Both the position numbers and the translations under genes were made by a program. 64,000 nt of DNA. Source: the human T2T-CHM13v2.0 reference genome, Homo sapiens. The stretch lies in NCBI RefSeq assembly GCF_009914755.1, contig NC_060935.1. One strand, written 5' to 3'. The notes under the pieces are model-generated. The model did not search any database. It was not told where the DNA came from and worked only from the letters and a program-made list of their open reading frames with translations. This document shows positions 1,880 to 64,000 of the stretch, in pieces (the stretch's first letter is position 1; each line of letters starts with the position of its first letter).

Positions 1880-2593
1880 GAAATGGCAGACAAATGTGGC
1901 TGTAGACCTCATTTATAGTTCATATCAAGCAATTTACCTCTTATTACAATGTCATGACTTTTCTCTGCTTCTTGGGAGCATTTCCAGCATCACTAGTAGC
2001 ATTTTGTATGAGTCTCGTGGTGTTATTCAAGGTTTATGGTATTGCACCAAATACAATGAAAAGTATGGAAGAACCATAAGAGATCACTTTTTACTGCAAT
2101 ACACAATGCACATACAGAGATGATTAAGTATCACACAGTGTTTTAAGTGGATCCTTGTAACACTTGAATTCACAATAGCAACAGGAGGTGGCTACAAAAT
2201 TATTACAGTAGTACAGTATGTACTACATTAAACTGTATGCAGTTATAATTTAATACTGCACCTTTATGTTTGTTTACATTCCTCTTGATTAGGAATCGCA
2301 CCATGTTCAGTCTGTGTTTATGTAAGTCTTGATAAATTTTAACTTTTTATAATATATTTGTGTATTTTATGGTAGTAAGCTATAAAATAGACTAGTATTT
2401 ATATATATATTTTGCATTCATGACATACCTTTTTCTTAGTTTTTTTCCAGATTTCTAGGCTGCATGGTTCATCTGCAAGTTTTTTCAAATTGCTGCAAAA
2501 CTCTAAAAAAATTTCCAATATATTTATTTTTTAAAATTCACATATGAGTGGACCCATACAGTTCAAACCCATGTTGTTCAAGGGTCAGCTGTA
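1880..2593. mobile_element. Tigger3-like TcMar DNA transposon relic
   Basis: Terminus gtggacccatacagttcaaacccatgttgttcaagggtcagctgta. Confidence 0.75.
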
Positions 2594-2669
2594 CCTGAGA
2601 TTTAAGTAGGGATCGCTATGTATTTAATGAATAAACAAACATTGTCTTCTCCCTGAAATATGGTGCTTA

Positions 2670-3380
2670 GTTTCAAAACTGAATTCGTCATCTTTCCTCA
2701 CATATTCTCCTCCTCCTCCTGAATTCACAAAACAAACTGTACTACTATTCACCCAGCTGACCAACCTAATCGCCCTAGATTCTGCTACTTCTCCTCCTTT
2801 CCACACATGCTCTCTTTTTACATTTCCAGGCTCAAGGTCTCATTTTTCACCTTTGATTCTTTAGTCTCTCATGTCTGCTAACACTTATCTCTTACAGTCA
2901 TCCCCTTTTTTCCTACTCCCCACTGCTAATTCCCTGGTTCTAGGCCCCCTTACATCTGGATAATTACAACAGTATTTCAAATGGTCTCTCTCCATCTCCA
3001 TCACACATTGATCATGGTACTCTCTTCTCAAAATCCTGCAATACTTTCTCAGTTCTTACTAAGAAAGCAATTGATGGTCTCACTTATAAGAGGGAGCTGA
3101 ACAATGAAAACACAAGCACCTTTGTCTGTACTATTTTTCCTTGGCTGAGGGTTCTTCACTTCTATCTCTGCATATCCAAATTCTATTCAATCTTCAATAA
3201 AGATGAAGACTTTTGAATGCCACAGGACATAATCTCTCTCACCACTGAATACCTACAAGCACTTTTATAACATTTGTAACATTGTTTTTCTCTTAAACTT
3301 ATTGGTATATTACTTGTTTTCTCTGAGGAAAGATTATCTGCTTCATCAGTGGTACTCACATAGGTGGCTAGCACATACAA
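2670..3380 (+). mobile_element. L2 relic
   Basis: Pyrimidine-rich L2 3' motifs (aaactgaattc.tcatcttt, ggataattacaacag..tggtctc). Confidence 0.55.
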
Positions 3381-4506
3381 GATATTCAATAAAACTATCC
3401 TAAGAGAACTGTGGGTTTTAATACACCCTATACACGTCTGAATATTAATGTATTTTATGCAGTACCTGAACTACATGTACAAAGACTATACACTATGAAG
3501 GACTGAACTATATTTGCCTGTAGAAATTTATGACAGCAACTCAGTGATTTAAATAATTTTCACTTCTCAATTTAATAATATTTCAGTCCTTCATCTATTA
3601 GAAATGGCAAACAGGATTTCCAAATCCCACATTTCTAAATTTCTTCCAAATCTATCTTTGGAGTTATTTTTCCTGTATTGAGTTCACTTTTCTATCACCA
3701 TGGAAACCAATTACAATTAGTGTTGTTAGGATCTTTAAAAATACAACTCTATTCAGCAAGTCTTCAAATGTTCAGAAAAGTTCTTTCTCCATATGGAGAA
3801 TGGAAATCAGTAGCATAGAGCAGGGTAAAAATATACCACCCACCCACAGAAGAAACCATTCACCAAAGCCTAATCAACGGATTGCAAATGGAACACGGAA
3901 AGAGTTCTTTTCTTTTATTCATCTTTTGTAGTTCTATAATGGCTGCAATTTCATGTGTCATACCTATGGGGTTTGTAAACAAGTTTTCTTTCACCTCACA
4001 GCCTGTGTAGCAGACGTGGAGACACAAAAAAATGATTTCTGTTGTATAATATTATGTGGTCCACCCACCCTACCTTCAACCTCCTAATATTTGACACTGA
4101 AAATACTACTTTAAAACTACTGAGTTCAGGACGCCAAGAGGAAGAATAATTCTACAGCAGAATTACATCTTACATGGTTAATAAGTGAAATAAGTTCTAA
4201 TTCCAGCACATAAGGCGAAAATCAATAAAAGGCAAAATTACCCTTCAGATTTACCAGGAAAAAGCTAGAGACCTACAAGCATCTTAACAGACCTAAGAGT
4301 TTTTCTTCCCAGAATGGGAATAGAGCACTGTTTTCTCAGCTGAGTATCTGATAAAGTAACCGATGTGCTCATCTTTAAACACTAGAATCACCATCAGTTC
4401 ACTGTGATGCCCATCATATGAAGAATACATGGAAAATGAGACCAAATAACACGACAGCAGAATCACAGCCCTCATCTTACTGATGCTCACTCAAGAACAT
4501 ATACTT

Positions 4507-5115
4507 GTCAGGAAACTGCTTCATACATATTTTCACATTTCAGCATGGTCAGGGCTTTCTAAGCAAAGAGCACTGGCACCTGGGCTAAGGGACTGAACTT
4601 AACCCAGTAACCCTAAAGATGGAGCCCTCTAGAGATAAAAGTTTTCTCTCTCCCCCAAGCCATGTTTACATTCCAGAGTGTTTGTGAAATACAGATCCTT
4701 GCTTCTTTTTCCCAGAGATTTTGTTTACATTTCAGAGCAAAGGTCTCTCTCTCTCTCCATCTCGAGAAAGGAGAATGGGCAGGAATGCCAGCTATCCTGT
4801 ATAAGCTTCAAGTTTCATAAGTGCAGAGTTCTCTTGTGGTACCAAATCCCACTTGTAAACACAGGATATCTCTGGTTGTCACCATATCACTTTATGGAGA
4901 ACCAGGGCCTAGGGAACCAACATAAGTTACTTTTCAAGTAAACAAGGGCTTAATTTCTGGTCCAGAGACTTGATGTTTCTGCTGGGGGAAAGGGAGGCTA
5001 CAGAGAGACAGAGAAAGAGAGAGTGAGAATGTGTGTAGTGTGTCTGTAGTTGTGGGAAGCCAACTTGTTAGCTTACTAGTAGGAAAACATCTCAGACTCT
5101 TCACAGTTTCAGACT
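4507..5115 (+). mobile_element. ERV1-class solo LTR, MER34/MER39-like
   Basis: Starts tgtcagga and ends ccaacttgttagctt..aaacatctcagactcttcacagtttcaga. Confidence 0.55.
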
Positions 5116-7229
5116 CAACAATACTATAAGTAAACTGCCTGTAAATTATGGCTGACTCCACTATAGATATATTTTTTCACAGTCCAACCACTTTTACACA
5201 TCTAATTCTTGGACTGAATAATCTCAAACGAGATACAGTGAAAATCCAGTACTTAGATGACAGTGGAACTGATGACTCACTATCTGAACATTTCATTTCA
5301 AATTCTCTCCTGAAAGGACAATGATTTCCTTGTATAAGAGGGAGTATACTGCAGAACATGCAGAAAAGTAAGGCTAAGATTTTTATTTCTTTTGAGGAAA
5401 ACTAAACTTTGTGGCCAGGGTGAGAATAAAATTAGCATGGGTTTTATTTCAAATGATTACACATGTAGTAACAGTACTTCTGTATAAGATTTTTTTAAAC
5501 TGAAAATATGTACAAGTTAATTTTTCAAACTGCAAGTGTCTTAACAAAATGGGGAGAGATAACCTTTTCATTAATTTATTTTTATTAATGATGAAGGCTT
5601 AACTGATAGGAAGTACTCAGGTGAAGTCAGTATCCACTGCCTCAATCCTGACAACACTGTCCTTGGGTCATCAGGACAAGTATGACTTCCCACATTTTAA
5701 AGATGATTATTTGACTTTACCTAAGTGCTTCCCTAGAACTTCTGCCTTTCTCTAAAGCCCTTTAAAATGTACTGCACAATTATTATGTCATTTAATTCCC
5801 ATAATACTTTATGATATAGTTAGAATAGATATATTTGTTTCTATTTTACAAATGAGGAAACTGACGACCAGAGACATTAAGAATTTACTTAAGATCACAA
5901 TGGAAATTACTTAAGGTTACACTGCAGTATTATGTATCATACTTTTTAACCTTCAACTACATTAAAGATGCGAGATACTCTAGAACCATCATTTACTCCT
6001 TTTTGTTAAAGTATTAGTTGAGTCAGTCTATTCTTTTCTAGCAATACAAAAGAACATGCAGAATGGCTCTAGTGTCAGGCCGCCTTGATTCAAATACAGT
6101 CCACAAAACGGTTTAAGAACTTGAGTAAGTTCTTAAACTCTTTTTACCTAAATTTCTGTACCTGAAATTGTTGTGGAGCGTAATTGAGACAATGTGGAAA
6201 CAGTATTTGATATAATGCCTGGCTCAGACAAAACATTCAATAAATATTGGCTTGTATTTTTATTGTAATTCTGATTACTACTTTTTAAATGAAACTTCAG
6301 GCTTTTAAAATTGTTTGCATTATTACCCCTCAATATTCCTACACTCAGGTCAAACTTTACTACTTCTTTCCGCCTTCCCAGCATCAAGGCAGAAATGCAT
6401 GTAATGATAGAAAGCCATGACAGCATTTTCAAGTCCCTTGCAGGCAGCTTGCATATAGAAAGCTCGAGACACAGATATTAAATTCATACTTTTCCTATTC
6501 CTTATTTATACAAAAACCTGAACTCTACCATTCAGGTTAATTTAACTTAATGTTTTGTATGAAATTGGATAAAAAGAAACACATCAAGTGATAACTTCAG
6601 ATAACCAGATGATAAAGAAAATACAAATCAAACATATCCTTTTCCCCCCCTACACACTAGATGGCGGTACAACACAAAGCACAGCAGGAACAGCGCTGCC
6701 TCAAACTCATCATTTCTTTGCGTGTTACAAGAGATTCCCCCCGCTTCTTACTGAAAAATATTTTGTGAAATGTGAATTAACCTTTGTTTTTGGACTGCAG
6801 AATAATACAACAGGGAAAATAAGTGCAGTAACAATAAATTTGCAGAATTTTAAACTACATGTGGCTTTACTTAAAACAAAAAGCCCCTTCTAGTAATTAT
6901 TTTTTTGTGAAATTTAAATTTCTCTAAACTAAACATAAGACATTTATGAATCAAAACCTGTAGAATTTGGCCAAACTACTATTCACAGGAAAATATCCAA
7001 ACTTAAATGCACTTACTAAAAAGTAATACCTAAAAACAAATGAATCATTAACAATACCTGTTGCATTCTATTTCTCTAAAGCAGAGATTAAGTAGTATAT
7101 GTTGTGTAATATTAATATTTGACAAAGTTGGTTTATGACGAAGCTAGTTTTTGAGAGGCAAATCCTAGTAGGCAATACGCATTATTCTCAACTCTTTTCT
7201 GGAAAAAAAAATATAAGAAAAACTAAACT

Positions 7230-45260: not shown

Positions 45261-48200
45261 GGAGGTGGCTGGCAAGATGGCCAAATAGGAACAGCTCCAG
45301 TTTGCAGCTCCCAGCGAGATCAATGCAGAAGGCGGGTGATCTCTGCATTTACAACTGCAGGACTCGACCCATCTCATTGGGACTGATTAGACAGTGAGTG
45401 CAGCCCATGGAAGGCGAGCCAAAGCAGAGTGGGGCGTTGCCTCACCTGGGAAGGGCAAGGGGTCAGGGAACTCCCTCTCCTAGCCAAGGGAAGATGTGAG
45501 GGACTGTGCCGTGAGAAGACTGTGCCGTGAGAAACGGTGCATTCTGATCCAAATACTACGCTTTTCACATGGTCTTCACAACCTGCAGACCAGGAGATTC
45601 CCTCAGGTGATTACACCACCAGGACCCTGGTTTCAAGCACAAAATTGGGCAGCCATTTGGGCAGACACCGAGCTAGCTGCAGGAGTATTTTTTTCATACC
45701 CCAGTGGCGCCTGGAATGCCAACAAGACAGAACCATTTACTCCCCTGGAAAGGGGGCTAAAGCCAGGCAGCCAAGTGGTCTAGCTCAGCCAATCCCACCC
45801 CCAAGGAGCCCAGCAAGCTAAGATCCACTGCCTTGAAATTCTTGCTGCCAGCACAGCAGTCTGAAGTCGACCTGGGATGCTCGAGCTTGGTAGGGGGAGA
45901 GTCGTCCACCATTACCGAGGCTTGAACAGGCAATTTTCCCCTCACAATGTAAACAAAGCCCCTGGGAAGTTGGGACAGTGCAGAGCCAACCACAGAGCCA
46001 CAAAGCCACTGTAGCCAGACTGCCTCTCTAGGCAGGACATGTCTGTAAGAAAGGCAGCAGCCCCAGTCAGGGGCTTGTAGATGAAACTCCCATCTCCCTG
46101 GGACAGAGTACCTGTGAGAAGGTGGGGCTGTGGGTGCAGCTTCATCAGACCTAAACGTTCCTGCCTGCCAACTCTGAAGAGAGCAATGGATCTCCCAGCA
46201 CAGCGCTGGAGCTCTGCTAAGGGACAGACTGCCCCCTCAAGTGGGTCCCTGAACCCCATGCCTCCTGACTGGGAAACATCTCCCAGCAGTAGTCAACAGA
46301 CACCTCATGCAAGAGAGCTCCAGCTGGCATCTGGCGGGTGCCCCTCTGGGACGAAGCTTCCAGAGAAAGGAACACACAGCAAACTTTGCTGTTCTGCAGT
46401 CTCTGCTGGTGATACCCAGGCAAACAGGGTCTGGAGTGGACATACAGAAAACTCCAGCAAACCTGCAGCAGAGGGGCCTCACTATTAGAAGGAAAACTAA
46501 CAAACAGAAAGGAATAGCATCAACATTAACAAAAAGGACGTACACACATAAACCCCACCCAAAGTTACCAACATCAAACACCAAAGGTAGATAAATCCAT
46601 GAAGATGAGGAAAAACCAGAGCAAAAAGGCTGAAAATTCCAAAACCAGAACACCTCTTCTCCTCCAAGGGATCACAACTCCTTGCCAGCAAGGGAAGAAA
46701 ACCAGACAGAGAATGAGTCTGACGAATTGACAGAAGCAGGCTTCAGAAGGTGGGTAATAACAAACTCCTCCAGGCTAAAGGAGCATGTTGTAACCCAATG
46801 CAAGGAAGCTAAGAACTTTGAAAAAAGCTTAAAGGAATTGCTAACTAGAATAACCAGTTTAGAGGATAACATAAATTACTTGATGGAGCCGAGAAACACA
46901 GCACGAGAACATCGTGAAGCTTACTCAAGTATCAATAGCCAAATTGATCAAGCAGAAGAAAAGATACCAGAGATTGAAGATCAACATAATGAAATAAAGC
47001 GTGAAGACAAGATTAGAGAAAAAAGAATGAAAAGGAACAAACAAAGCCTCCAAGAAATATGGGACTATGTGAAAAGACCAAATCTATCTTTGGCTGGTGT
47101 ACCTGAAAGTGACGAGGAGAATGGAATCAAGCTGAAAAACACTCTTCAAGATATTATCCAGGAGAACTTCCCCAACCTAGCAAAACAGGCCAACATTCAG
47201 ATTCAGGAAATACAGAGAACACCACAAAGATACTCCTTGAGAAAAACAACCCCAAGACACATAATTGTCAGATACACCAAGGTTGAAATAAAGGAAAAAA
47301 TGTTAAGGGCAGCCAGAGAGAAAGATCAGGTTACCCACAAAGGGAAGCCCATCAGACTGACAGCAGAGCTCTGCAGAAACCGTACAAGCCAGAAGAGAGT
47401 AGGGGGCCAATATTCAACATTCTAAAAAGAATTTTCAACCCAGAATTTCATATCCAGCCAAACTAAGCTTCATAAGCAAAGGAGAAATAAAATCCTTTAC
47501 AGACAAGCAAATGCTGAGAAATTTTGTCACCACCAGGCCTGTCTTACAAGAACTCCTTAAGGAAGCACTACATATGGAAAGGAAAAACCGGTAGCAGCCA
47601 CTACAAAAACATACCAAATTGTAAAGACCATCAACACTATGAATAAACTGCATCAACTAACGGGCAAAATAACCAGCTAGCATCATAATGACAGGATCAA
47701 TTTCGCACATAACAATATTAACCTTAAATGTAAATGGGCTAAATGCCCCAATTAAAAGACACAGACTGGCAAACTGGATAAAGAGTCAAGACTCATCGGG
47801 GTGCTGAATTCAGGAGATTCATCTCACATGCGCACATAGGCTCAAAATAAAGGGAAGGAGGAAGATTTACCAAGCAAATGGAAGGCAAAAAAAAAAAAAA
47901 AGCAGAGAATGCAATCCTAGTCTCTGATAAAACAGACTGTAAACCACAGAGATCAAAAAAGACAAGAGCTAAAGGGATCAATGTAACAAGAAGAAGCTAA
48001 CTATCCTAAATATACATGCACCCAATACAGGAGCACTCAGATGCATAGAGCAAGTTTTTAGAGACCTACAAAGAGACTTAGACTCCCACACAATAACAGT
48101 GGGAGACTTTAACACTCCACTGTCAATATTAGACAGATCAACAAGACAGAAAATTAACAAGGATATTCAGGACTTGAACCCAGCTCTGGATGAAACAGAC

Positions 48201-51200
48201 CTAATAGACATTTACAGAACTCTCCACTCCCAAATCAACAGACTATACATTCTTCTCAGCACCATATCGCATGTATTCTAAAACTGACCACATAATTGGA
48301 AGTAAAACACTCCTCAGCAAATGCAAAAGAATGGAAATCATAACAGTCTCCCAAACAATAGGCAATCAAAATAAAATTCAGGATTAAGAAACTCACTCAA
48401 AACCGCACAACTACATGGAAACTGAACAATCTGCACCTGAATGACTACTGGGTAAATAATGCAATTAAGGCAGAAATAAATAAGTTCTTTGAAATCAACG
48501 AGAACAAAGACACAACATACCAGAATTTCTGGGACAAGTGAAAGCAGTGTTTAGAGGGAAATTTATTGCATTAATGACCACAGGAGAAAGTGGGAAAGAT
48601 CTAAAATTGGTACCCTATCATCACAGTTAAAAGAACTAGAGAAGCAAGAGCAAACAAATTCAAGAGCTAACAGAAGACAAGAAATAACTAAGGAGCAGAA
48701 CTGAAGGAGACAGAGACATGAAAAACCCTTAAAAAAAATCAGTGAATCCAGGAGCTAGTTTCTTGAAAAGATTAACAAAATGGATAGACTGCTAGCCAGA
48801 TTAATGAAGAAGAAAAGAGAGAAGAATAAAATAGACACAATAAAAAATGATGAAGGGGATATTAGCACTGATCCCACAGAAATACAAACTACAATCAGAG
48901 AATACTGTAAACACCTCTACACAAATAAACTAGAAAATCTAGAAGAAATGGATAAATTCCTGGACACATACACCTTCCCAAACTAGGAAGACACCTTCCT
49001 AAACTAGGAAGAAGTCGAATCCCTGAACAGACCAATAACAAGTTCTGAAATTGAGGCAGTAATTAATAGCCTACCTACCAAAAAAAAAAGCCCAGGATCA
49101 GACGGATTCACAGCCAAATTCTACTAGAGGTACAAAGAGAAGCTGGTACCATTCCTTCTGAAACTACTCCAAACAACTGAAAAAGAGGGACTCGTCCCTA
49201 ACTCATTTCATGAGGCCAACATCATCCTGATACCAAAACCTGGCAGAGACACAACAAAAAAACAAAATTTCAGGCCAATATCCCTGATGAACATCAATGT
49301 GAAAATCCTCAATAAAATACTGGCACACCAAATCCAGGAGCACATTAAAAAGCTTATCCACCACAATCAAGTCAGCTTCAACCCTGGGATACAAGGCTGG
49401 TTCAACATATGAAAATCAATAAGCATAATCCATCATAACAGAACCAATAACAAAACAGAACCAATGACATAAACAGAACTAATGACAAAAACCACAATTA
49501 TCTCAATAGATGCAGAAAATCCCTTTGATAAAATTCAACACTGCTTCATGCTAAAAACTCTCAATAAACTAGGTATTCATGGAATGTATCTCAAAATAAT
49601 AAGAGCTATTTATGACAAACCCACAGCCAATATCATACTGAAAGGGCAAAAGCTGGAAGCATTCCCATTGAAAATCAGCACAAGACAAGGATGCCCTCTC
49701 TCACCACTCCTATTCAACATAGTACTAGATGTTCTGGCCAGGGAAATCAGGCAAGGGAAAGAAATAAAGGGTATTCAAATAGGAAGAGAGGAAGTCAAAT
49801 TGTCTCTGTTTGCAGATGACGTGATTGTATATTTAAAAAACCCCATCGTCTCAACCCAAAATCTCCTTAAGCTGATCAGCAACTTCAGCAAAGTCTCAGG
49901 ATACAAAATTAATGTGCAAAAATCACAAGCATTCCTATACACCAATAATAGACAAACAGAGAGCCAAATCATGAGTGAACTCCCACTCACAATGGCTAAA
50001 AGAGAATAAAATACCTAGGATGATAAAATACCTAGGATGATGATACCTATGAGAATAAAATACCTACAATGAGAATAAAATACTTACAAGGGATATGAAG
50101 GACCTCTTCAAGGAGAACTACAAACCACTGCTCAATGAAATAAGAGAGGACACAAACAAATAGAAAGATATTCCATGCTCATGGATAGGAAGAATCAATA
50201 TTGTGAAAATGGCCATACTGCCCAAGGTAATTTATAGATTCAATGCTATCCTCATCAAGCCACCATTGACTTTCTTCACAGAATTAGAAAAAACTACTTT
50301 AAATTTCATATGGAACCAAAAAAGAGCCTGCATAGCCAAGACAATCCTAAGCAAAAAGAACAAAGCTGGAGGCATCACGCTACCTGACTTCAAACTACAC
50401 AAGGCTACAGTAACCAAAACAGCATGGTACTGGTGCCAAAACAGATATATAGACCAATGGTACAGAACAGAAGCCTTAGAAATAACGCCACACATCTACG
50501 ACCCTCTGATCTTTGACAAACCTGACAAAAACAAGCTATGGGGAAAGGATTCCTTATTTAATAAATAGTGTTACGAAAACTGGATACCCATATGCAGAAA
50601 ATTGAAACTGGACCCCTTCTTACACCTTATACAAATATTAACTCAAAATGAATTAAAGACTTAAACATAAGACCTAAAACCATAAAAACCCTAGAAGAAA
50701 ACCTAGGCAATACCATTCAGGACATAGGCATGGGCAAAGACTTCATGACTAAAACACCAAAAGCAATAGCAAAAAAAAAGCCAAAATTGACAAATGGAAT
50801 CTAATTAAACTAAAGACCTTCTCCACAGCAAAAGAAACTATCATCAGAGTGAACAGGCAACCTACAGAATGGGAGAAAATTTTTGCAATCTATCCATCTG
50901 ACAAAGGGCTAATATCCAGAATCTACAAGGAACTTAAACAAATTTACAAGAAAAAAAAAACCATCAAAAAGTTAGCAAAGTATATGAACAGACACTTCTC
51001 AAAAGAAGACATTTATGTGGCCAACAAACATGAAAAAAGCTCATCAATACTAGTCATCAGAGACATGCAAATCAAAACCACAATGAGATACCACCTCACA
51101 CTAGTTAGAATGGTGATCATTAAAGTCAGGAAACAACAGATGCTGGAGAGGATGTGGAGAAACAGGAACACTTTTACACTGTTGGTGGGAGTGTAAATTA

Positions 51201-51795
51201 GTTCAGCCATTGTGGAAGACAGTGCGGCGATTCCTCAAGGATCTAGAACCAGAAATACCATTTGACCCAGCAATCCCATTACTAGGTATATACCCAAAGT
51301 ATTATAAATCATTCTACTATAAAGACAAATGCACACGTATGCTTACTTCAACACTGTTCACAACAGCAAAGACTTGGAACCAACCCAAATGCCCATCAAT
51401 GATAGACTGGATAAAGAAAATGTGGCACATATACACCATGGAATACTATGCAGCCATAAAAAAAGATGAGTTCTTGTCCTTTGCAGGGACATGGATGATG
51501 CTAGAAACCATCATTCTCAGCAAACTAACACAGGAACAGAAAACCAAACACTGCATGTTCTCACTCACAAGTGTGAGTTGAACAATGAGAACACATGGAC
51601 ACAGTGAGTGGAACATCACACACCGGGGCCTGTCAGGGGGTGGGGGCTAGGGGAAGGATAGCATTAGGAGAAATACCTAATGAAGGTGACAGGTGGATGG
51701 GTGCAGCAAACCACCATGGCACATGTATACCTATGTAATAAACCTGCATGTTCTGCACATGTACTCCGGAACTTAAAAGTATAATAATAAAAAAA
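45261..51795 (+). mobile_element. Full-length decayed L1PA (L1PA7-like)
   Basis: 5' UTR ggtggctggcaagatggcc, ORF1 remnant 46682..47425, ORF2 fragments 47687-51581, 3' UTR and A-tail. Direct repeat ttgaggaca(c/t)tgg on both sides. Confidence 0.92.
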
Positions 51796-53808: not shown

Positions 53809-53917
53809 CATTGCGCTAAGAGTTTCTTCCCAATCAGGCCGCTCTCGAGGGTGTACATTTCTATGTAGCTCTGGAACAAAATCATCTTCTTCAGAATGTA
53901 CTGAGGACTTCATCTTC
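53809..53917 (-). CDS. ARHGAP32: ARHGAP32 internal coding exon (109 nt, phase 2 to phase 0): (R)KMKSSVHSEEDDFVPELHRNVHPRERPDWEETLSAM
   Basis: Acceptor ...gatctctag|G and donor ATG|gtaaat on the minus strand. The peptide matches the recalled N-terminal region of PX-RICS/ARHGAP32, and the phase fits the next exon. Confidence 0.95.
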
Positions 53918-56709
53918 CTAGAGATCAAAACACGAAAGATTCTGATAAGAATTTCCAATTCTATGAAAGCCTTCCAATGATCACAATTGAAAGAGCAGAA
54001 AAACTACATGTCAGATTTGAAGTTTAGCTAAAAGAGCTTAACTGAATAGCAGTGATCCTTTATTTCTACTCTGGCTTTCAGAGGTCTCTCCTAATGTACC
54101 AAACACCTGCTTTTATTCCAGAAGATAAAATAAGGTTTACAGCTAGTTAACCTTTATGGTCCATGGTTATTATATAAAAACTGATTTTTATCAGTTCAAC
54201 ACAATTTGAACCTTGAAAAGATTTGCAACAGCAATTAGTTACTCTGAATCAATATTTACAGAACTGTGCTAAGCATTAGTATCATTTCAGAATAAAGAAA
54301 AGATATGGTATTTCTGGTTCCAATCAATGGAGCAGAGTGCAGCAAATAAGCATTTTCAATGAGAACAACTATGAATGTTGGGCAAAACATATAAAACAGC
54401 TTGTCTGAAGGCAACAGAAAGCAACCAATACAGATGGGACATCCAGGGCTACAAGCTTTGAGATAAGGAAAGCCCAATCAAGCAATTTCCACATTTAATC
54501 CTTCTTTCTGTATAAGATAACTTTTCAAATCAATCATGGGAAATAGAGCCCAAGATAATAACTGTAATCTTAGTGGGATGAGAAGGCAGAGGTTGGAGGC
54601 TGGGATTACCAAAGTAGGGAGGAATTCAGGATGCAAAATGCCCCCAAAAAAGACCTAAAGAGAAAGAGCCCAGAAATCTACAGCAAAATTCACCTCAAAT
54701 TATTAACTGAGTCCTAAGCTTACAAATATGTAGGACAGGATGCCAAGAAACCCAAAACAAACCAAGTAAAGAGGCAAGTAGACATTTTGGCAGCCCATCA
54801 ATGGTGAGGAGATGGGCTGGCAAGCAAGCACTGCCAAGATGGAGGAGCACTGAAAAACCCCTGAGCTCTTATGTGTGACTCTAAAAAAGCCATGCCTTAA
54901 GAGTATGGACAAAATAGCAATAGAAAAATTCTAACAAAGCCCCAAACCAAGCCTTGACAGAATCAGAAGTACGAGAAGAAAAATTAACTGTCTTTGGAGG
55001 AAAAAACATTCTCCAGACTCTCTGCAAATCTTTCGTTCACATTATCTAGTATCCAGTAAATATTATGAGGCATGCTTAAAAAAACAAGAACTAGTGAAAA
55101 TTGAGAAAAAAAATAGTCAAACCAGAAAGACTCACATTTCATTCAGATCTTAGCATTATCAGAAAGAGACTTTAAAATGGCATTTGTGATTTTCTGCCTA
55201 TGATGCAGAAAGCTGTAAAGAGCATCACCCCTAGCCTAGTAATAATAAAAAAAAAAATAGATAATCTGAAAATCTTAACTTTTCTAGGACACAACAGAAA
55301 ACTGAGGTCTCAGGGCAACCAACTAGTTTAAACACTATGGAAACACAAGCCTCTCTGAGATTAGATGGATGACAAGCAGTTACTTTTCTGAACACAGTAT
55401 GGGGAGAAGAGGAATACATAAGAAGAATTTAGTTAAATTTTTATCAAATTGCTAAAAACATTTATGATTTATATGTTCAATTGAATGAAAGTAAAAAATA
55501 AGAGAGAAATGATGAATTTCAACAGAGAATTGGAAGCCATAAAATCAAATGTTCATTTTAAAACTGAAAAATACAGTATCTGAAATTAAGAACTAACCAG
55601 ATACATTTAGTAGAACAATAAACATAGCTAAAGAGAGGGTTAGTGAACTAGAAGATAGTTTAGTAGAAAATATCCACATTGAAGAACACAGAGAAAAAAA
55701 GGAACAGAAAATACACAAAATAGTATAAAGGATGAGAGACTTGGTTTAAAAAAAAAGATCTCAAATATGTCTAAATTGATGACAGAGATAAGGGAGATAA
55801 TTTTTTAAAACAAGAGAATGTGACAAAAGCAATATTTGAAAACAAATGCTAAAAGTTTTCAAAACTGATGAAATCATCAAACTAAAGATTCAAAGAAATT
55901 CTATAAACCTCAAGCAGAATTTTTAAAAATTAAAACCATAGGTAAATTACAGTCAAACTGCTAAAAACCAAACACAAAGAGAAATCCTTAAAAGCAGCCA
56001 GAGAATTTTTTAAAGTTGACTTCCAATAAGCAATAATTACAATGGGAGAAGACATTTCAATGGAAAAGAGAAAATAATGAAATTAACCTTCAGTGTGCTA
56101 AAAGGAAAAAATATTTCCAACCTAGAATCTTCTGCCTCACCAAAGTAACCATTTTGAAAGCAGGTAAAACAAATTATTTACAAATGAAAGCTGAAAAAAA
56201 CTACCACCAAGAGACTGCAATAAAAGAAATAGTAAAGAGAATTCCTAATTGAAGAAAACTGATTCCAAAACTACAAAAACACATGAAAAGAATAAAGCAC
56301 AAAAGTGGGGAAATATAAGTAAATACTGTATAAACATAAAAATAACGTCTTATGAAGTTAACAATATATACACATTAAAAACACAAAGGATAAGAAATGT
56401 ACATTCAGTCAAACAGTTTAGGATTTCTCTATTGGTTGAGAAGTGAGAAAAGCTCTATTTTATGGAATACTGTATGTAAGTCAAATATATGTTGCAGTCT
56501 CTATAGTGAACACTAGAAGAACGAGAAATAAATGTATAACTAAAAAGCTGATAGAGGAAAAGATTTTTGAAAAATAAAACATACATATTAATCTAAGAGA
56601 AGGCAGGAAATAAAGAATAAGAGAAGAAATAATAAAACAAGGCAAATAAAAACAAATATTAAAATGGTAAACTTAAATTCAAGCACATTAATAATTTGGA
56701 AAGCAAACA

Positions 56710-57385
56710 GACTAGCTGGGAAAGATACGGAGAAATCACACCCCTCATTCATTATTAGAAGGAATGTAAAATGGCACAGCCACTGTGGAAAAGACTGGCA
56801 GTTTCTCAAAATGTTAAAACAGAGAATTACCAAATGACCAAGCAATTCTATCCTGGTATTTAATCAAGAGAAATAAAAACACGTCTACCAAGAACTTGTA
56901 CATGAATATTCATAGCAATATTATTCATAATAGCCAAAAAGTAGGGACAATCAAAATGCCCAGCAACTGAAGGATAAATAAGCAAAATGCACTAGGTACA
57001 CATAATAAAATATTATTCAGTCATTAAAAAAGAATGAAGTGCTGATTCATGCTACCACAGGGATAAACATTGAAAACATTATGCTAAATAAAATAAGTCA
57101 GAGGCAAAAGACCACAAATCATATAATTCTCTATATATGAAATTTTCAGAATAGTCAAGCCCATAGAGACAAAAATTATATTAGTTGTTTCCAGAGGCTG
57201 AGGAGATGGAAACATGGAGAGTTCTACTAATAGGTGAGGGATTTCAGGTGAGGGATTTCTTTCTCAAATGTTCTAGAATTAGATAACAGTGGTTTTCGTA
57301 TAACTTCATGAATATATTAAAAACCACTGAATTGTACACTTTAAAAGTGAATCACATGGCATGTGAATTCTTTTAGTTAAAAAAA
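56710..57385 (+). mobile_element. L1MB-like 3' end
   Basis: tgctgattcatgctaccacagggataaac..., aaaaccactgaattgtacactttaaaa. Confidence 0.75.
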
Positions 57386-57452
57386 GTAAATGGACTTAAA
57401 GATCCCTATTAAAATACAAAGACTATAAGCAGGGATTTAAAAACCAACAACT

Positions 57453-57745
57453 GCTGGGTGCAGTGGCTCACACCTATAATCCTAGCACTTCAAGAGGCCA
57501 AGGTGGGCATATTACTTGTGCCCAGAAGTTCAAGACCAGACTGGGCAAGACAGTTGGACCCCATCTGTAAAAAAAAATACAAAAATTAGCCAGGTGAAAT
57601 GGTATACACCTGTGGTCCCAGCTTCTCCACAGGCTGAGGTGAGAAGATCACCTGAGCCCAGGATGTCGAGGCTGCAGTGAGCCATGTTCACACCACTGTA
57701 CTCCAGCCTGGGTGACAGAAAAGCAACTTGTCTCAAAATAAAAAG
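57453..57745 (+). mobile_element. AluJ
   Basis: Diverged dimer with cctgagcccagga.gtcgaggctgcag. Confidence 0.88.
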
Positions 57746-58838
57746 CAATAACTATATCCTAAGAGACATACTTTAAATATAACAACACCAAAAGGTAGAA
57801 AATGGAAGGATTACAAAAACTGATACCATGTAAACACTAGCCAAAGAAGGCTAGCGTAGCTATATTACATCAGGCAAAGTAGACCTTAAGCACAAGGTAT
57901 TACTAGAAATAAAGGGAGACGTTTCATAAAAGCATCAAATTAACAGGTTAACACAATTTATATGCAATAAGTTGTAAACAAAATTTGTATGCAAAAAATA
58001 ACAGCTTCAAAATACATAAAGTTGAAAGAACTAAAAAACAGATAAATCCACTATCACCGTTGTAGATTTTAGCAAATCCCTCTCAATGGCTGATAGAATA
58101 AGCAGACAAAACTGTAAGTATATGACTTGAACAATTCAATTTTCCAATGTGAACTAACACAGAACACTAAACCCAACAACTACAAAACTCATTTTTTCTT
58201 TCACATTCTTTTCAAGCATATATGAAACATTTACAAATAGACTAAATGCTAGAAGACAAAGTCTCAACAAATTAAAAAAATTTAAATCATGAATCACGTT
58301 TTATAACCACCGCAGAACTGCACTAAAAAGCAATGACTGAAAGATAACTAGAAATTCCTCTAAATGTTTGGAAATAAAGAAACACAATACTCAATAACTC
58401 ATAAATCAAACATAAAAATCACAATGGAAATTAGAAAGTCTTTTTATGTGAATGATAATGAAAATACAATAGATGAAAATGTGTGGGATACAACTAAAGA
58501 GGTATTTAGCAAAATTCATAGCTCTAAATGCATGTTACTGGAAATTAGACAAGTTGAAAAATTACTACTTCTAAGCTTCTATCACAAGAAGCTAGAAAAA
58601 GAATAGTAAATTAATTCAAGGAAAGTATTTAAAAATGTTTAAATAACAAATCAATAAAATAGAAAGTAAATGCATAAAAAAGAAAACAAAGCCAAAGGTT
58701 GATTCTTTAAAAGATTAATAAAATGAACAATCCCTAGAATAAGTCTGACCAATAAAAAAATGGAGAATCTACAATATAGATAATAAAAAGGGAGCCATAA
58801 ACAGAAAGCCTGTGAACATTAAAAAGATTCTAAGGCTG

Positions 58839-59142
58839 GGCTGGGCATGGTGGCTCAAGGCTGTAATCCCAGCACTTTGGGAGGCTGAGGCGGGTGGATC
58901 ACGAGGTCAGGAGATCAAGACCATCCTGCCTAATACGGTGAAACCCCGTCTCTACTAAAACTACAAAAAATTAGCTGGGCGTGGTGGCGGGCGCCTATAG
59001 TCCCAGCTACTCAGGAGGCTGAGGCAGGAGAATGGCGTGAACCCGGGAGGTGAAGCTTTGCAGTGAGCTGAGATCGCACCACTGCACTCCAGCCTGGGCC
59101 ACAGAGTGAGACTCTGTCTCAAAAAAAAAAAAAAAAAAAAAA
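58839..59142 (+). mobile_element. AluY
   Basis: Y diagnostics and A22 tail. TSD-like aaaaagatt(c/g)t(a/g)aggc. Confidence 0.92.
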
Positions 59143-59677
59143 GATTGTGAGGCCATTATGAACATTTTCACTGCAATGCAGTTGAGAATTTAGTTGAAAT
59201 GAACAAATCCTCTGAGGAACCCAATTCACCAAACCTGAAACAATAAACAAAAAGATTTGTACAGTCCTACAGCTATTAAACAAAATTAATCTGTAAGGAA
59301 ACTCCAAGCCCAAATGAATCCATTGAACTCTTTTAAACATACAAGCCAAAGATAATAAAAATTGTATAAACATTCTTCCAAAGTATAAAAATAAAAGGAA
59401 CACTTCCCAATCCATCCAATAAGGCCAAGCCAGAGTTTAGAGCAAAAGCTAGACATTACTAGAAGAGAAAATTATAGGTTGATATAATGAACACAGTTAT
59501 AAAACTCCTAAACAAAATATAAAATCAAACCCAGTAATATACAAAAACCCAGTAATATACAAAAAGGATAGTGACCGAATGAGTTTTAATTCAAAATGCA
59601 AATTGATTAAACGTTCTAAAATCAAGCCCTATAATTGATCACACTACACTATTAAAGGGAAATATATATATATAATT

Positions 59678-62600
59678 TCTTTCTTTTTAATTTCTTCAAA
59701 AAAAAAAAAAAACGGGATACATATGCAGAATGCGCAGGTTTGTTACATAGGTATACATGTGCCATGGTGGTTTGTGGCATCTATTGACTCGTCCTCTACT
59801 TTCCGTCCCCTCCCCTCACCCTCCACCCCACAACTGGCCCCGATCTGTGTTGTTCCCCTCTCTGTGTCCACCTGTTCTCAGTGTTCAACTCCCAATTATG
59901 GATGACAACATGCAGTGTTTGGTTTTCTGTTCCTGTGTTAGCTTGCTGAGGATGATGGCTTCCAGCTCTGTCCATGTCCCTGAAAAGGACATGATCTCAT
60001 TCCTTTTTATGGCTTCATAGTATTCCATGGTGCATATGTACCACATTTTCTTTATCCAGTCTGTCACTGATGGCCATTTGGGTTGGTTCCATGTCTCTGC
60101 TGTTGTAAACAGTGCTGCAATAAACATATGTGTGCAAGTGCCTTTATAGTAGAATGATTTATATTCCTTTGGGTAATGGAATTGCTAGGTCAAATGGTAT
60201 TTCTGGTTCCAGATCGTTGAGGAATTGCCATAGTGTCTTCCACAAGGGTTGAACTAATTTACATTCCCACCAACAGTGTAAAAGTGTTTGTATTTCTCCA
60301 CAGCCTCGCCAGCATCTATTGTTTCCTGACTTTTTAATAATCGCCATCCTGACTGGCGTGAGATGGTGTCTCACTGTGGTTTTGATTTGCATTTCTCTGA
60401 TGATCAGTTATGTTGAGCTTCTTTTCATGTTTGTTGGCCACAGAAATGTCTTCCTTTGAGAGGTGTCTGTTCATATCCTTTGCCAACTTTTTGATGGGGT
60501 TATTTATCTTTATCTTGTAAATATGTTCGAAGTTCCTTGTAAATGCTGGATATTAGACCTTTGTCAGAAGGGTAGATTGCAAAAATTTTCTCCCATTCTA
60601 CAGGTTGCCTGTTCACTCTGATGATAAGTTTCTTTGGCTGTGGAGATGGTATTTTGTTTAATTAGATCCCATTTGTCAATTTTGGCTCTTATTGCAATTG
60701 CTTTTGGCATTTTTGTTATGAAGACTTTGCCCATGCCTATGTCCTGAATGGTAATGCCTAGGTTTTCTTCTAGGGTTTTTATGGTTTGGGGTTTTACATT
60801 TAAGTCTTTAATCCATCCTGAGTTAATTTTTGTATAAGGTGAAAGGAAGGGGTCCAGGTTCAGTTTTCTGTATATGGCTAGCCAGTTTTCCCAGCACCAT
60901 TTACTGAATAGGAGATCTCTTTCCCATTGTTTGTTTTTGTCAGGTTTGTCAAAGATCAGAGGGTTGTAGATGTGTGGTGTTATTTCCGAGGTCTCTGTTC
61001 TGCTCCATTGGTCTATATGTCTGTTTTGGTACCAGTACCCTGCTGTTTTGGTTACGGTAGCGTTGTAGTATAGTTTGAAGTCAGGTAGCGTGATGCCTCC
61101 AGCTTTGTTCTTTTTGCTTAGGATTGTCTTGGCTATATGGGGTCTTCTTTGATTTCATATGAAATTCAAAATAGTTTTTTCTAATTCTGTAAGAATGTCA
61201 ATGGTAGCTTGATGGGAATAGCACTGAATCTATAAATTACTTCAGGCAGTATGGCCATTTTCACAATACTGATTCTTCCCAACCATGAAGAAGGAATGTT
61301 TTTCTATTTGTTTGTGTCATCTCTTATTTCCTTGAGCAGTGGTTTGTAGTTCTCCTTGAAGAGGCCCTTCACATCCCCTGTTAACAGTATTCCTAGGTAT
61401 TTTATTCTCTTTGTAGCAATTATGAATGTGAGTTCATTCATGATTTGGCTCTCTGCTTGCCTATTGTTGACAAAAAGGAATGCTTGGGATTTTTACACAT
61501 TGATTTTGTATCCTGAGACTGCTGAAGCTGCTTATCAGTTCAAGGAGTTTTTGGGCTGAGATGACTGGGTTTTCTAAATATAAAATCATGTCATCTGCAA
61601 ACAGAGACAACTTGACTTCCTCTCTTCCTACCTGAATAACCTTTATTTCTTTCTCTTGCCTGACTTCCCTGGCCAGAACTTCCAATACTATGTTGAATAG
61701 GAGTGGTGAGAGAGGGCACCCTTGTCTTGTACTGGTTTTCAAAGTGAATGTTTCCATCTTTTCTCCATTCAATATGATATTGGCTGTGGGTTTGTTATAA
61801 ATAGCTCTTATTGTTTTGAAATATGTTCCATCAATATCTAGCTTATTGAGAGTTTTTAACGTGAAGGGATGTTGAATTTTATCAAAGGCCTTTTCTGCAT
61901 CTGTTGAGATAATCATGTGGTTTTGTCTTTGGTTCTGAAGTCTACAGAACTCTCTACCCCAAATCAACAGAATATACATTCTTCTCAGTGCCACATGGCA
62001 CTTATTCTAAAAACGAACACATAATTGGAAGTAAAACACTCCTCAACAAATGCAAAAGAACTAACTTCACAACAAACAATCTCTCAGACCACAGTGCAAT
62101 CACATTAGAACTCAAGATTAAGAAACTCACTCAAAAGCACACAATTTCATGGAAATTGAACAACCTGCTCCTGAATGACTCCTGGGGAAATAAAGAAATT
62201 AAGGCAGAAATCAGGAAGTTCTTTGAAACAAATGAGAACAAATAGAGACAACATACTAGAATCTCTGGGACACAGCTAAAGCAGTGTTAAGAGGGAAATG
62301 TATAGCACTAAATGCCCACATCAGAAAGCAAGAAAGATCTCAAATGGACACCCGAACATCACAATTAAAAGAGCTAAAGGCAAGAGCAAACTAATCCAAA
62401 AGCTAGCAAAGCACAAGAAATAACTAAGATCAGAGAAGAAATGAAGGAGATAGAGACATGAAAAACCCTCCAAAAAGAAAAAAAAAAAAATCAACAAATC
62501 CAGGGGCTGTTTTTTTGAAAAAACAAACAAACAAACAAACAAACAAAAAACCACTAGCTAGACTAACAAAGAAGAGAGAGAAGAATCAAACAGACACAAT

Positions 62601-63184
62601 AAAAAATGTTTAGGGACACCACTGACCCCACAGAAATACAAACTACCATCAGAGAATACTATAAACATCTCTACACAAATAAACTAGAAAATCTAGAAGA
62701 AACGGATAAATTCCTGGATGCATGCACCCTACCAAGACTAAATTAGGAAGAAGCTGAATCCCTGAATAGACCAATAACAAGTTCTGAAATTGAGGCAGTA
62801 ATTAATAGACCAACCAAAAAAAAAAAAAAGAAAAGCCCAGGACCAGACGGATTCACAGCCAAATTTTACCAGAGGTACAAAGAGGAGCTGGTACCATTCC
62901 TTCTGAAACCACTCCAAACAATTAAAAAGGAGGGACTCCTCCCTAACTCATTTTATGAAGCCAGCATCATCCTGATACCAAAACCAGAAAGAAACACAAC
63001 CAAAAAAGAAAACTTCAGGCCAATACCTCTGATGAACATCGATGCAAAAATCCTCAATAAAATACTGGAAAATTGAATCCAGCAGCACATCAAAGAGCTT
63101 ATCCACCACGATCAAGTCGGCTTCATTCCTGGGATGCAAGTCTGGTTCAACATATGCAAATCAATAAATGTAATCCATCACATA
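59678..63184 (-). mobile_element. 5'-truncated, 5'-inverted (twin-primed) L1PA, L1PA8A-like
   Basis: 3' half on the minus strand 59678-61937 and an inverted ORF2 segment on the plus strand 61938-63184. The two pieces abut in L1 coordinates (ccatcacata|aa|cagaaccaaagac). Confidence 0.9.
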
Positions 63185-63418
63185 TGATTTCAATAGGTGA
63201 AATTTAATACCTATTCATAAATTCTTTAAAATATTTTAATGAAAATTATTGAAAAACACAAATACAGCTAAGCATCACACTTAACATTGAAATACTAAAT
63301 GATTTCCCACTGAGATCATGAACAAATCAAGAATGTTGTCTTCTATTCAACACTGTACTTGAGGTCTTATTCACTTGGGGAAAAAAAGCAAGAAAAAATG
63401 TAAAAATTGGAAAAGAAA

Positions 63419-64000
63419 GAGGAGCCAAGATGGCCAAATAGGAACAGCTCCGGTCCACAGCTCCCAGCGTGAGCGACGCAGAAGACGGGTGATTTCTGCA
63501 TTTCCATCTGAGGTACCAGGTTCATCTCACTAGGGAGTGCCAGACAGTGGGCACAGGACAGTGGGTGCGCGCACCGTGCACAAGCCAAAGCAGGGCGAGG
63601 CATTGCCTCACTCGGGAAGCGCAGAGGGTCAGGGAGTTCCCTTTCCTAGTCAAAGAAAGGGGTGACAGACGGCACCTGGAAAATCGGTTCACTCCCACCC
63701 AAATACTGCGCTTTTCCGACGGGCCTAAAAAATGGCGCACCAGGACATTATATCCCGCACATGGCTCGGAGGGTCCTACGCCCACGGAGTCTCGCTGATT
63801 GCTAGCACAGCAGTCTGAGATCAAACTGCTAGGCGGCAGCAAGGCTCGGGGAGGGGCGCCCACCATTGCCCAGGCTTGCTTAGGTAAACAAAGCAGCCAG
63901 AAAGCTCGAACTGGGTAGAGCCCACCACAGCTCAAGGAGGCCTGCCTGCCTCTGTAGGCTCCACCTCTGGGGGCAGGGCACAGACAAATAAAAAGACAGC
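63419..64000 (+). mobile_element. Young L1 (L1PA2/L1PA3-like) 5' UTR, running off the window
   Basis: gaggagccaagatggcc...cagcgtgagcgacgcagaagacggg; many CpGs retained. Confidence 0.95.
63419..64000. promoter_or_regulatory. L1 bidirectional promoter: sense promoter with YY1 site, and antisense promoter facing ARHGAP32 sense
   Basis: YY1 core aagatggcc at 63427-63435, SOX-type aacaaag at 63887-63893, RUNX motif accaca at 63924-63929. Activity is inferred from L1 family knowledge. Confidence 0.65.
63522..63866 (-). CDS. L1 ORF0 (antisense ORF), open for 114 codons
   Basis: ATG in gcaATGg context; MVGAPPRALLPPSSLISDCCASNQRDSVGVGPSEP... matches ORF0p. Translation is unproven. Confidence 0.7.
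   Translation of the reverse strand: MVGAPPRALLPPSSLISDCCASNQRDSVGVGPSEPCAGYNVLVRHFLGPSEKRSIWVGVNRFSRCRLSPLSLTRKGNSLTLCASRVRQCLALLWLVHGARTHCPVPTVWHSLVR

What the first reader, a model, noticed from the sequence alone, without database searches (positions are those of the whole stretch)
53809..63866. Predicted in-frame L1 ORF0-ARHGAP32 fusion driven by an intronic L1 antisense promoter
Seen: a young CpG-rich L1 5' UTR starts at 63419 on the plus strand, so its antisense promoter points along ARHGAP32 sense, about 9.8 kb upstream of the acceptor at 53917. ORF0 is open from a strong-context ATG at 63866. The donor at ORF0 +106 (63761) reads CAT|gtgcgg rather than CAG|gt. It is therefore weakened, and it is phase 1, which would be out of frame. 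The donor at +191 (63676) is intact, CAG|gtgccg, and falls after 63 codons plus AG, which is phase 2. The next ARHGAP32 exon is phase 2 (G AAG ATG). Splicing 63676 to 53917 gives MVGAPP...VGVNRFS-R-KMKSSVHSEEDD..., which continues through all downstream exons. Established: primate L1 antisense promoters make chimeric transcripts, and ORF0 uses two donors at these offsets to fuse to host exons. Inference: this locus could make a lineage-specific PX-RICS isoform whose native N-terminal exon is replaced by 63 aa of ORF0p. Loss of the out-of-frame donor would favour the productive splice.
Basis: partly seen in the sequence, partly recalled or inferred. Interest (0 to 1): 0.85.

Follow-up and report, generated by a model that had tools for sequence, protein, structure and literature searches.

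The report
Intronic L1PA3 with untested fusion potential
An ordinary, full-length but dead L1 retrotransposon sits backwards in an ARHGAP32 intron, and its antisense ORF0 could on paper splice in frame to the next exon, but nothing found here shows that this transcript is made.

Summary
The donor-2 fusion frame stays open through all four ARHGAP32 exons in the window.

None of this is special to the locus. The element is a 6.03-kb L1PA3 with a target-site duplication and a broken ORF2. An open ORF0 running to a phase-2 GT donor occurs in 19 of 29 close copies. The "weakened" donor 1 is an inherited sub-lineage variant: 114 exact genomic copies against 468 of the CAG form. The "intact" donor 2 is only family-typical and weak at +4 to +6. 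Frame compatibility has a 1-in-3 chance.

I found no expression evidence. The supplied RefSeq table shows no exon in the L1. ARHGAP32 is absent from two L1-chimera catalogues. The element read about 99% methylated in the one cell line listed.

Verdict: an ordinary intronic L1 carrying a legitimate but untested prediction of a known kind. RNA data could not be queried.

The parts
63419..64000 (+). First 582 nt of the 5'UTR of a full-length L1PA3. The element runs on to about window coordinate 69448, outside the window. It lies antisense to ARHGAP32.
   Evidence: 39 other genomic copies at 94-95% identity; about 6.03 kb, ORF1 open, ORF2 interrupted; ends and duplication; listed as a full-length L1PA3 in ARHGAP32 in a published table. 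The match rests on length (6,026 nt) and a constant 35.5-kb coordinate offset.
63402..63418 (+). 5' copy of the 17-nt target-site duplication. The 3' copy lies outside the window, after the poly(A) tail.
   Evidence: the same 17-mer sits immediately before 63419 and after the short A-run at the 3' end.
63524..63866 (-). Unspliced antisense ORF0, 114 codons here. The stop codon begins at 63524.
   Evidence: The ATG context is GGCAATGG.
63676..63866 (-). ORF0 segment up to donor 2 (63 codons plus AG). This is the putative first exon of the proposed chimera, counted from the ATG.
   Evidence: Family-typical in 19 of 29 copies.
63753..63763 (-). Donor 1, CAT|GTGCGG. Phase 1, and out of frame with exon 53917. 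The T at -1 is an inherited sub-lineage variant.
   Evidence: 114 against 468 exact 26-mers genome-wide.
63668..63678 (-). Donor 2, CAG|GTGCCG. Phase 2, and in frame with exon 53917. It is family-typical but off consensus at +4 to +6.
   Evidence: 18 of 29 identical; rough score.
53809..53917 (-). ARHGAP32 coding exon of 109 nt with incoming phase 2. The acceptor reads tctctag|G and the donor ATG|GTAAAT.
   Evidence: and the hub's RefSeq table.
59715..63184 (.). An older L1 inside the proposed 9,758-nt intron. 59715-61937 is in minus orientation (sense to the gene; L1 positions about 3743-6001). 61941-63184 is in plus orientation (positions about 2521-3740). The layout is that of a 5'-inverted insertion.
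   Evidence: 84% and 83% identity to the L1PA3.

Best explanation
This is an ordinary fixed, full-length, retrotransposition-dead L1PA3. It inserted antisense into an ARHGAP32 intron about 9.8 kb upstream of a coding exon. It carries the family's standard antisense ORF0 with its two GT donors. The phase-2 donor happens to match the phase of the next host exon, which has a 1-in-3 chance. The element is most likely kept methylated and silent in most tissues. If its antisense promoter ever fires, the output is expected to be rare and heterogeneous: weak donors at 63761 and 63676, other GT sites, and many cryptic acceptors in the intervening old L1. A defined ORF0-PX-RICS protein isoform is not expected.

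Shown: the anatomy, its family-typical nature, the inherited status of the donor-1 variant, and absence from the catalogues checked. Inferred: silence or low output.
For: - Anatomy.
- Family-typical ORF0: 28 of 29 close copies keep the ATG. 19 of 29 keep the ATG, an open frame, 191 nt and a GT donor together.
- Donor 1 CAT|GT is shared by 3 of 29 close copies. Its 26-mer has 114 exact genomic copies, against 468 for the CAG form.
- Donor 2 has C, C, G at +4 to +6. On a recalled-frequency matrix it scores -0.13 bits. Five other GT sites between 63741 and 63517 score from -0.55 to 1.53, four of them above donor 2.
- A crude polypyrimidine score ranks the true acceptor 23rd of 540 AGs in the proposed intron. 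Several better-looking sites lie in the old L1 piece at 61941-63184.
- The hub's RefSeq table lists exons of the selected transcript and of other transcripts (1 of 14 shown in full). None lies between 53920 and 64000.
- ARHGAP32 is absent from all 10 uncut supplementary files of Criscione 2016 (PMC4908685: 988 genes, 2,015 ESTs). ARHGAP15, ARHGAP25 and ARHGAP28 are present there.
- ARHGAP32 is absent from the 3 supplementary files of Pinson 2022 (PMC9396940), which covers brain and glioma L1 chimeras.
- Full-text searches for ARHGAP32 + LINE-1 + chimeric transcript, and for ARHGAP32 + L1PA, each found 0 papers.
- The Lanciano 2024 (PMC10879037) table row for this element lists one cell line, MRC5, with the value 0.993.
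Against: - Absence from catalogues is weak evidence. ESTs are shallow (609 of 988 genes rest on one EST, section read).
- The methylation value covers one fibroblast line only. I did not see the column headings, so reading 0.993 as a methylated fraction is inferred from the paper's topic.
- The native pre-mRNA crosses the same 9.8 kb and still finds the 53917 acceptor. Decoy acceptors therefore do not dominate there, and an antisense-promoter transcript with a working donor would probably reach it too.
- Reviews state that ORF0 chimeras commonly arise from L1PA1-L1PA8 when the promoter is hypomethylated (passages seen). L1PA3 falls within that range.
- ARHGAP32 chromatin is open in brain (recalled, not tested).
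- The ATG context is strong, and no upstream ATG competes up to 64183.
Confidence: 0.75

Rival explanations
1. A real but minor chimeric transcript. In hypomethylated settings (early embryo, pluripotent cells, placenta, some tumours, perhaps neurons) the L1PA3 antisense promoter fires. Part of its output uses donor 2 and the 53917 acceptor. The result is a low-abundance in-frame ORF0-ARHGAP32 mRNA with no demonstrated function.
For: The whole path is open in sequence. The ORF0 ATG is the first AUG in a strong context. The class is established: reviews report two ORF0 donors and fusion to downstream exons (passages seen). The EST survey attributes 626 of 2,015 L1-antisense ESTs to primate-specific pre-Ta subfamilies, and most chimeras are sense to the host gene and bypass its first exons (section read). 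The native transcript shows that the 53917 acceptor is reachable across this intron.
Against: No transcript, EST or annotated exon supports it (hub table). The element read 0.993 in MRC5. Donor 2 is weak, and donor 1 and other GT sites compete. Donor 1 products hit a stop at the junction.
Confidence: 0.2
2. A selected, lineage-specific protein isoform. Hominids use this L1 as an alternative promoter and first coding exon to make a PX-RICS variant whose N-terminus is 63 aa of ORF0p. Weakening of the out-of-frame donor would be an adaptive step.
For: Only the in-frame geometry and the T at donor 1 position -1.
Against: The donor-1 variant is shared by at least 114 L1 copies genome-wide, so it was not selected at this locus. 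The ORF0 segment differs from the commonest state of its relatives at the same general rate as the rest of the 5'UTR, 25 of 582 positions overall, and shows no sign of locus-specific conservation. The in-frame chance is 1 in 3. No expression evidence was found.
Confidence: 0.03
3. Alternative promoter without an ORF0 fusion. Antisense transcripts use donor 1 or other GT sites, are out of frame with ORF0, and are either degraded or translated from the in-frame ATG inside exon 53809-53917 (the M of KMKSS). That would give an N-terminally truncated protein.
For: Donor 1 and several other GT sites score at or above donor 2 on the rough matrix. The donor-1 product ends at the junction. An in-frame ATG lies 5 nt into the exon.
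Against: There is the same lack of any transcript evidence. Reinitiation after a 35-codon ORF is inefficient (general knowledge).
Confidence: 0.05

Closest known systems
L1 ORF0 and ORF0-host exon fusions (Denli et al. 2015, Cell 163:583). The paper is not held. It is known here only through review passages seen.
   Same: An antisense ORF in a primate L1 5'UTR, a strong-context ATG, two internal GT donors, and the potential to splice to a downstream host exon. All of these sequence features are present here.
   Different: No transcript or peptide evidence exists for this locus. Here the unspliced ORF0 runs 114 codons, against the roughly 70 aa the review gives. Donor 1 carries T at -1. The exact published donor offsets could not be checked in print.
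L1 antisense-promoter chimeric transcripts (LCTs), for example the 988 EST-supported genes of Criscione et al. 2016 (PMC4908685)
   Same: An intronic L1 antisense to the gene, with its promoter pointing along gene sense and lying downstream of the gene's own TSS. It would bypass the first exons, which is the typical geometry described in the section read.
   Different: ARHGAP32 is not in that catalogue, nor in the brain/glioma catalogue of Pinson et al. 2022.
Full-length L1PA3 elements catalogued by locus (Lanciano et al. 2024, PMC10879037, supplementary file 4)
   Same: This element appears there as chr11:129173931-129179956:+:L1PA3, full-length, in ARHGAP32. Its length and its spacing to the neighbouring L1PA7 row match the window.
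   Different: Nothing differs. It is that element.

Membership tests
Full-length primate L1 (L1PA3) | About 6 kb with a 5'UTR, ORF1, ORF2, 3'UTR, poly(A) tail and flanking target-site duplication | tested here: met
   ORF1 is open and ORF2 is present but interrupted; 17-nt duplication, short A-run, length about 6.03 kb.
Full-length primate L1 (L1PA3) | Subfamily assignment by diagnostic positions | not tested
   No repeat library was on hand. The L1PA3 label is taken from the published table row. Consistent with it: 94-95% identity to the nearest copies, and 25 of 582 positions differ from their commonest state.
ORF0-bearing L1 5'UTR | An antisense ATG in a strong context at about L1 position 450, with an open frame | tested here: met
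   ATG at 63866, which is L1 position 448 counted from 63419, in the context GGCAATGG, open for 114 codons.
ORF0-bearing L1 5'UTR | Two internal splice donors | tested here: inconclusive
   Both GT dinucleotides are present. Donor 1 has T at -1. Donor 2 is off consensus at +4 to +6. Actual use was not testable.
L1 antisense-promoter chimeric transcript (LCT) | Transcription start inside the L1 5'UTR on the antisense strand | not testable with these tools
   No CAGE, RACE or RNA-seq access.
L1 antisense-promoter chimeric transcript (LCT) | An observed splice junction from L1 antisense sequence to a host exon | tested here: not met
   ARHGAP32 is absent from the supplementary files of two catalogues. 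The supplied RefSeq table shows no exon in the L1. This is a literature check only, not a read-level test.
ORF0-host fusion protein | Reading frame continuous from ORF0 into the host coding sequence | tested here: met
   the donor 2 to 53917 frame is open through all four window exons. The donor 1 product hits a stop.
ORF0-host fusion protein | Translation or peptide evidence | not testable with these tools
   No Ribo-seq or proteomics access.

The most novel reading that the evidence does not exclude
In some hypomethylated or developmental context in great apes, this L1PA3 antisense promoter yields a translated in-frame ORF0-PX-RICS fusion. The native N-terminal segment of a neuronal Rho-GAP would be replaced by 63 retrotransposon-derived residues, with a measurable effect on localisation or regulation.
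Probability: 0.06. Interest if true: 0.45.

Novelty: already known. Interest (0 to 1): 0.15.

Why it matters
If the fusion were real, it would be one more example of a primate-specific retrotransposon supplying a promoter and coding N-terminus to a neuronal signalling gene. That would be of some interest for ARHGAP32 biology, but it is not a new principle.

As it stands, the value of this check is negative. In-frame ORF0-to-exon geometry is what chance and family-typical L1 sequence give. The apparent 'loss' of the competing donor is an inherited subfamily variant. Such sequence-only predictions need read-level evidence before they rank highly.

Tried and rejected
- **Primary papers.** Denli 2015 and Speek 2001 are not held. 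The published donor offsets and promoter limits rest on review passages and on recall.
- **Supplements of two more locus-level L1 expression studies** (PMC12791003, PMC10619931). They may bear on whether this L1 is expressed in iPSC or neurons.
- **Poly(A) hexamers on the transcribed strand of the proposed intron.** There are 13, against 11.8 in mononucleotide shuffles. That is no enrichment, so it gives no argument for premature termination.
- **Crude acceptor ranking** and **a donor matrix built from recalled frequencies**. Both are rough and serve only for ordering. Neither can decide splice choice.
- **Locating the ATG-bearing upstream exon.** The stretch at the annotated TSS holds no ATG-started frame that reaches a phase-2 AG|GT donor. 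I did not locate the coding first exon in the roughly 105 kb upstream.
- **Shared ancestry of the CAT copies.** Among the 29 close copies no column other than 63761 sets the CAT copies apart. The genome-wide counts settled that question instead.
- **A fifth literature search** listed no paper that names ARHGAP32 among its top 15 rows.
Full report
**Observation**

- An ATG lies at 63866 in the context GGCAATGG.
- A GT follows 106 nt from the A of the ATG (last exon base 63761, CAT|GTGCGG, phase 1).
- A second GT follows 191 nt from the A (last exon base 63676, CAG|GTGCCG, phase 2).
- The ARHGAP32 exon 53917-53809 is preceded by tctctag and begins G AAG ATG.

Joining 63866-63676 to that exon gives ...VGVNRFS-R-KMKSSVHSEEDD.... 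The frame stays open through the other three annotated exons in the window. The donor-1 join gives a stop at the junction. Unspliced, ORF0 runs 114 codons to a stop at 63524.

**What the element is**

The window's own genome can be searched. The 582-nt 5'UTR piece gave 4,912 first-look candidates, and the 39 other copies that were scored are 94-95% identical.

I fetched the 7 kb beyond the window. The element is full length at about 6.03 kb. ORF1 is open and ORF2 is interrupted, so it cannot retrotranspose. It ends in a short A-run, and a 17-nt target-site duplication flanks it.

A published locus table lists a full-length L1PA3 on the plus strand in ARHGAP32 at hg38 chr11:129173931-129179956 (6,026 nt). 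It also lists a full-length L1PA7 18,157 nt below it. The window holds two full-length plus-strand L1s whose starts lie 18,146 nt apart (63419 and 45273). The T2T-to-hg38 offsets are 35,488 and 35,499. The identification is therefore secure, and I take the subfamily label L1PA3 from that table. I did not test diagnostic positions.

CpG observed/expected is 0.53 (26 CpG in 582 nt). The copy differs from the commonest state of 29 relatives at 25 of 582 positions. This is a moderately young element, not a very young one.

**Is anything locus-specific?**

I aligned the antisense strand of the window with the 29 fetched copies.
- ATG: 28 of 29 keep it.
- Donor 1: 26 of 29 have G at -1. 18 of 29 read CAG|GTGCGGG, and 3 of 29 read CAT|GTGCGGG like the window.
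- Donor 2: 18 of 29 read CAG|GTGCCG exactly like the window, and 5 read CAG|GTGCCA. One has lost the GT.
- An ATG, an open frame, 191 nt and a GT donor occur together in 19 of 29.

The open ORF0 and its phase-2 donor are thus what the family carries, not a property of this copy.

The T at donor 1 looked like a possible local change, so I counted the exact 26-mer around it in the whole genome. There are 114 copies with the window's form and 468 with the G form, taken from stored locus L003. That is 114 of 582 exact matches. A transversion present in more than a hundred dispersed copies is a source-lineage variant inherited at insertion. It is not a loss at this locus, and it cannot be read as favouring a productive ARHGAP32 splice.

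Agreement between the phase of donor 2 and the next exon has a prior of 1 in 3. With two donors of different phase, two of the three possible exon phases are served by one donor or the other.

**Splice-site quality and the path**

Donor 2 departs from the MAG|GTRAGT consensus at +4, +5 and +6. I built a log-odds matrix from recalled approximate human donor frequencies, so it is good for ordering only. Scores in bits are:

| Site | Score |
|---|---|
| Donor 2 | -0.13 |
| Donor 1 as it stands | 0.58 |
| Donor 1, family form | 3.9 |
| The four real exon donors in the window | 0.8 to 5.1 |
| Five other GT sites between 63741 and 63517 | -0.55 to 1.53 |

'Intact' is therefore true only relative to the family.

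The proposed intron is 9,758 nt. It contains an older L1 with an inverted 5' part. 59715-61937 lies in the gene's sense orientation and 61941-63184 in the opposite one, at 83-84% identity to the L1PA3. Poly(A) hexamers on the transcribed strand number 13, against 11.8 in shuffles, so they give no special termination signal.

A crude polypyrimidine score places the true acceptor 23rd of 540 AG sites. Several better-looking sites fall in the old L1 piece. This is weak evidence.

No ATG lies upstream of the ORF0 ATG on this strand until 64183, and that one gives 'M-stop'. ORF0 would therefore be the first AUG of an antisense-promoter transcript.

**Expression evidence**

None could be obtained directly, because no RNA-seq, CAGE or long-read resource is on hand. 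The indirect evidence is as follows.
- The RefSeq table supplied with the finding lists the exons of the selected transcript and of other transcripts. None lies between 53920 and 64000.
- Criscione et al. 2016 (PMC4908685) is the EST catalogue of 988 genes with L1-antisense chimeras. I read the abstract and the first part of the Results, and searched all 10 supplementary files, none of them cut. ARHGAP32, RICS and GRIT do not occur there. ARHGAP15, ARHGAP25 and ARHGAP28 do.
- Pinson et al. 2022 (PMC9396940) covers L1 chimeras in brain and glioma. I searched its 3 supplementary files and ARHGAP32 is absent. Of the main text I saw only the search listing.
- Lanciano et al. 2024 (PMC10879037): I saw two passages of supplementary file 4, which was cut when stored. 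The row for this L1PA3 lists one cell line, MRC5, with the value 0.993. I read this as about 99% methylated, by inference, because I did not see the column headings.
- Full-text searches for ARHGAP32 with LINE-1 and 'chimeric transcript', and for ARHGAP32 with L1PA, each returned 0 papers. A looser search listed nothing relevant in its 15 rows.

Against reading too much into this: the EST survey itself notes that 609 of 988 genes rest on a single EST. One fibroblast line says little about embryo, brain or tumours.

**Known biology**

Review passages seen state four things. [quoted passage not shown] It has two splice donors. [quoted passage not shown] Such chimeras arise commonly from L1PA1-L1PA8 when the antisense promoter is hypomethylated.

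The primary papers (Denli 2015, Speek 2001) are not held. The exact published donor offsets and promoter limits are recalled, not checked.

**Verdict**

Its most distinctive argument, the loss of the competing donor, is removed by the genome-wide counts.

My estimates, which overlap and so do not sum to one:
- About 75%: an ordinary, essentially silent intronic L1PA3 whose in-frame geometry is chance.
- About 20%: a rare chimeric transcript occurs in hypomethylated cells.
- A few percent: a functional lineage-specific isoform.

Interest is low. A query of public junction and CAGE data would settle the matter quickly.

Noticed in passing
window 45273-51795 (+): A second full-length L1, also antisense to ARHGAP32, lies in the next intron. 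It matches the L1PA7 row of the published table, hg38 chr11:129155774-129162305. That row carries 12 cell lines, and two of its values are low (0.39 and 0.002), so this older element may be unmethylated somewhere. Its antisense strand keeps an ORF0-like ATG near 45912. Its promoter would face exons 16183 and 13772.
   Followed up: partly
window 59715-63184: An older L1 in two abutting pieces of opposite orientation: L1 positions about 3743-6001 on minus and about 2521-3740 on plus. This is the layout expected of a 5'-inverted (twin-priming-type) insertion. On the minus strand its 3' end is followed by a T-run, not an A-run.
   Followed up: partly
window 53862 and 53919 (hub's table: exons of other transcripts 53809-53862 and 53809-53919): Neither alternative exon start is preceded by an AG acceptor; 53864-53863 is AT and 53921-53920 is CT. 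They look like transcript 5' ends or 5'-incomplete models, not spliced exons. The two extra bases at 53919-53918 are AG. Any upstream exon ending in AG would also supply AG, and that includes the ORF0 donor-2 exon. The model therefore cannot tell the two origins apart.
   Followed up: no
L032 (G000:C11:129313000-129315600), minus strand below the annotated TSS: The first about 470 nt after the ARHGAP32 TSS are extremely GC- and CpG-rich, hold no ATG, and are followed by a good donor-like site (CTCG|GTAAGG). The first exon therefore seems non-coding, and the start codon must lie in a further upstream exon that I did not locate.
   Followed up: partly
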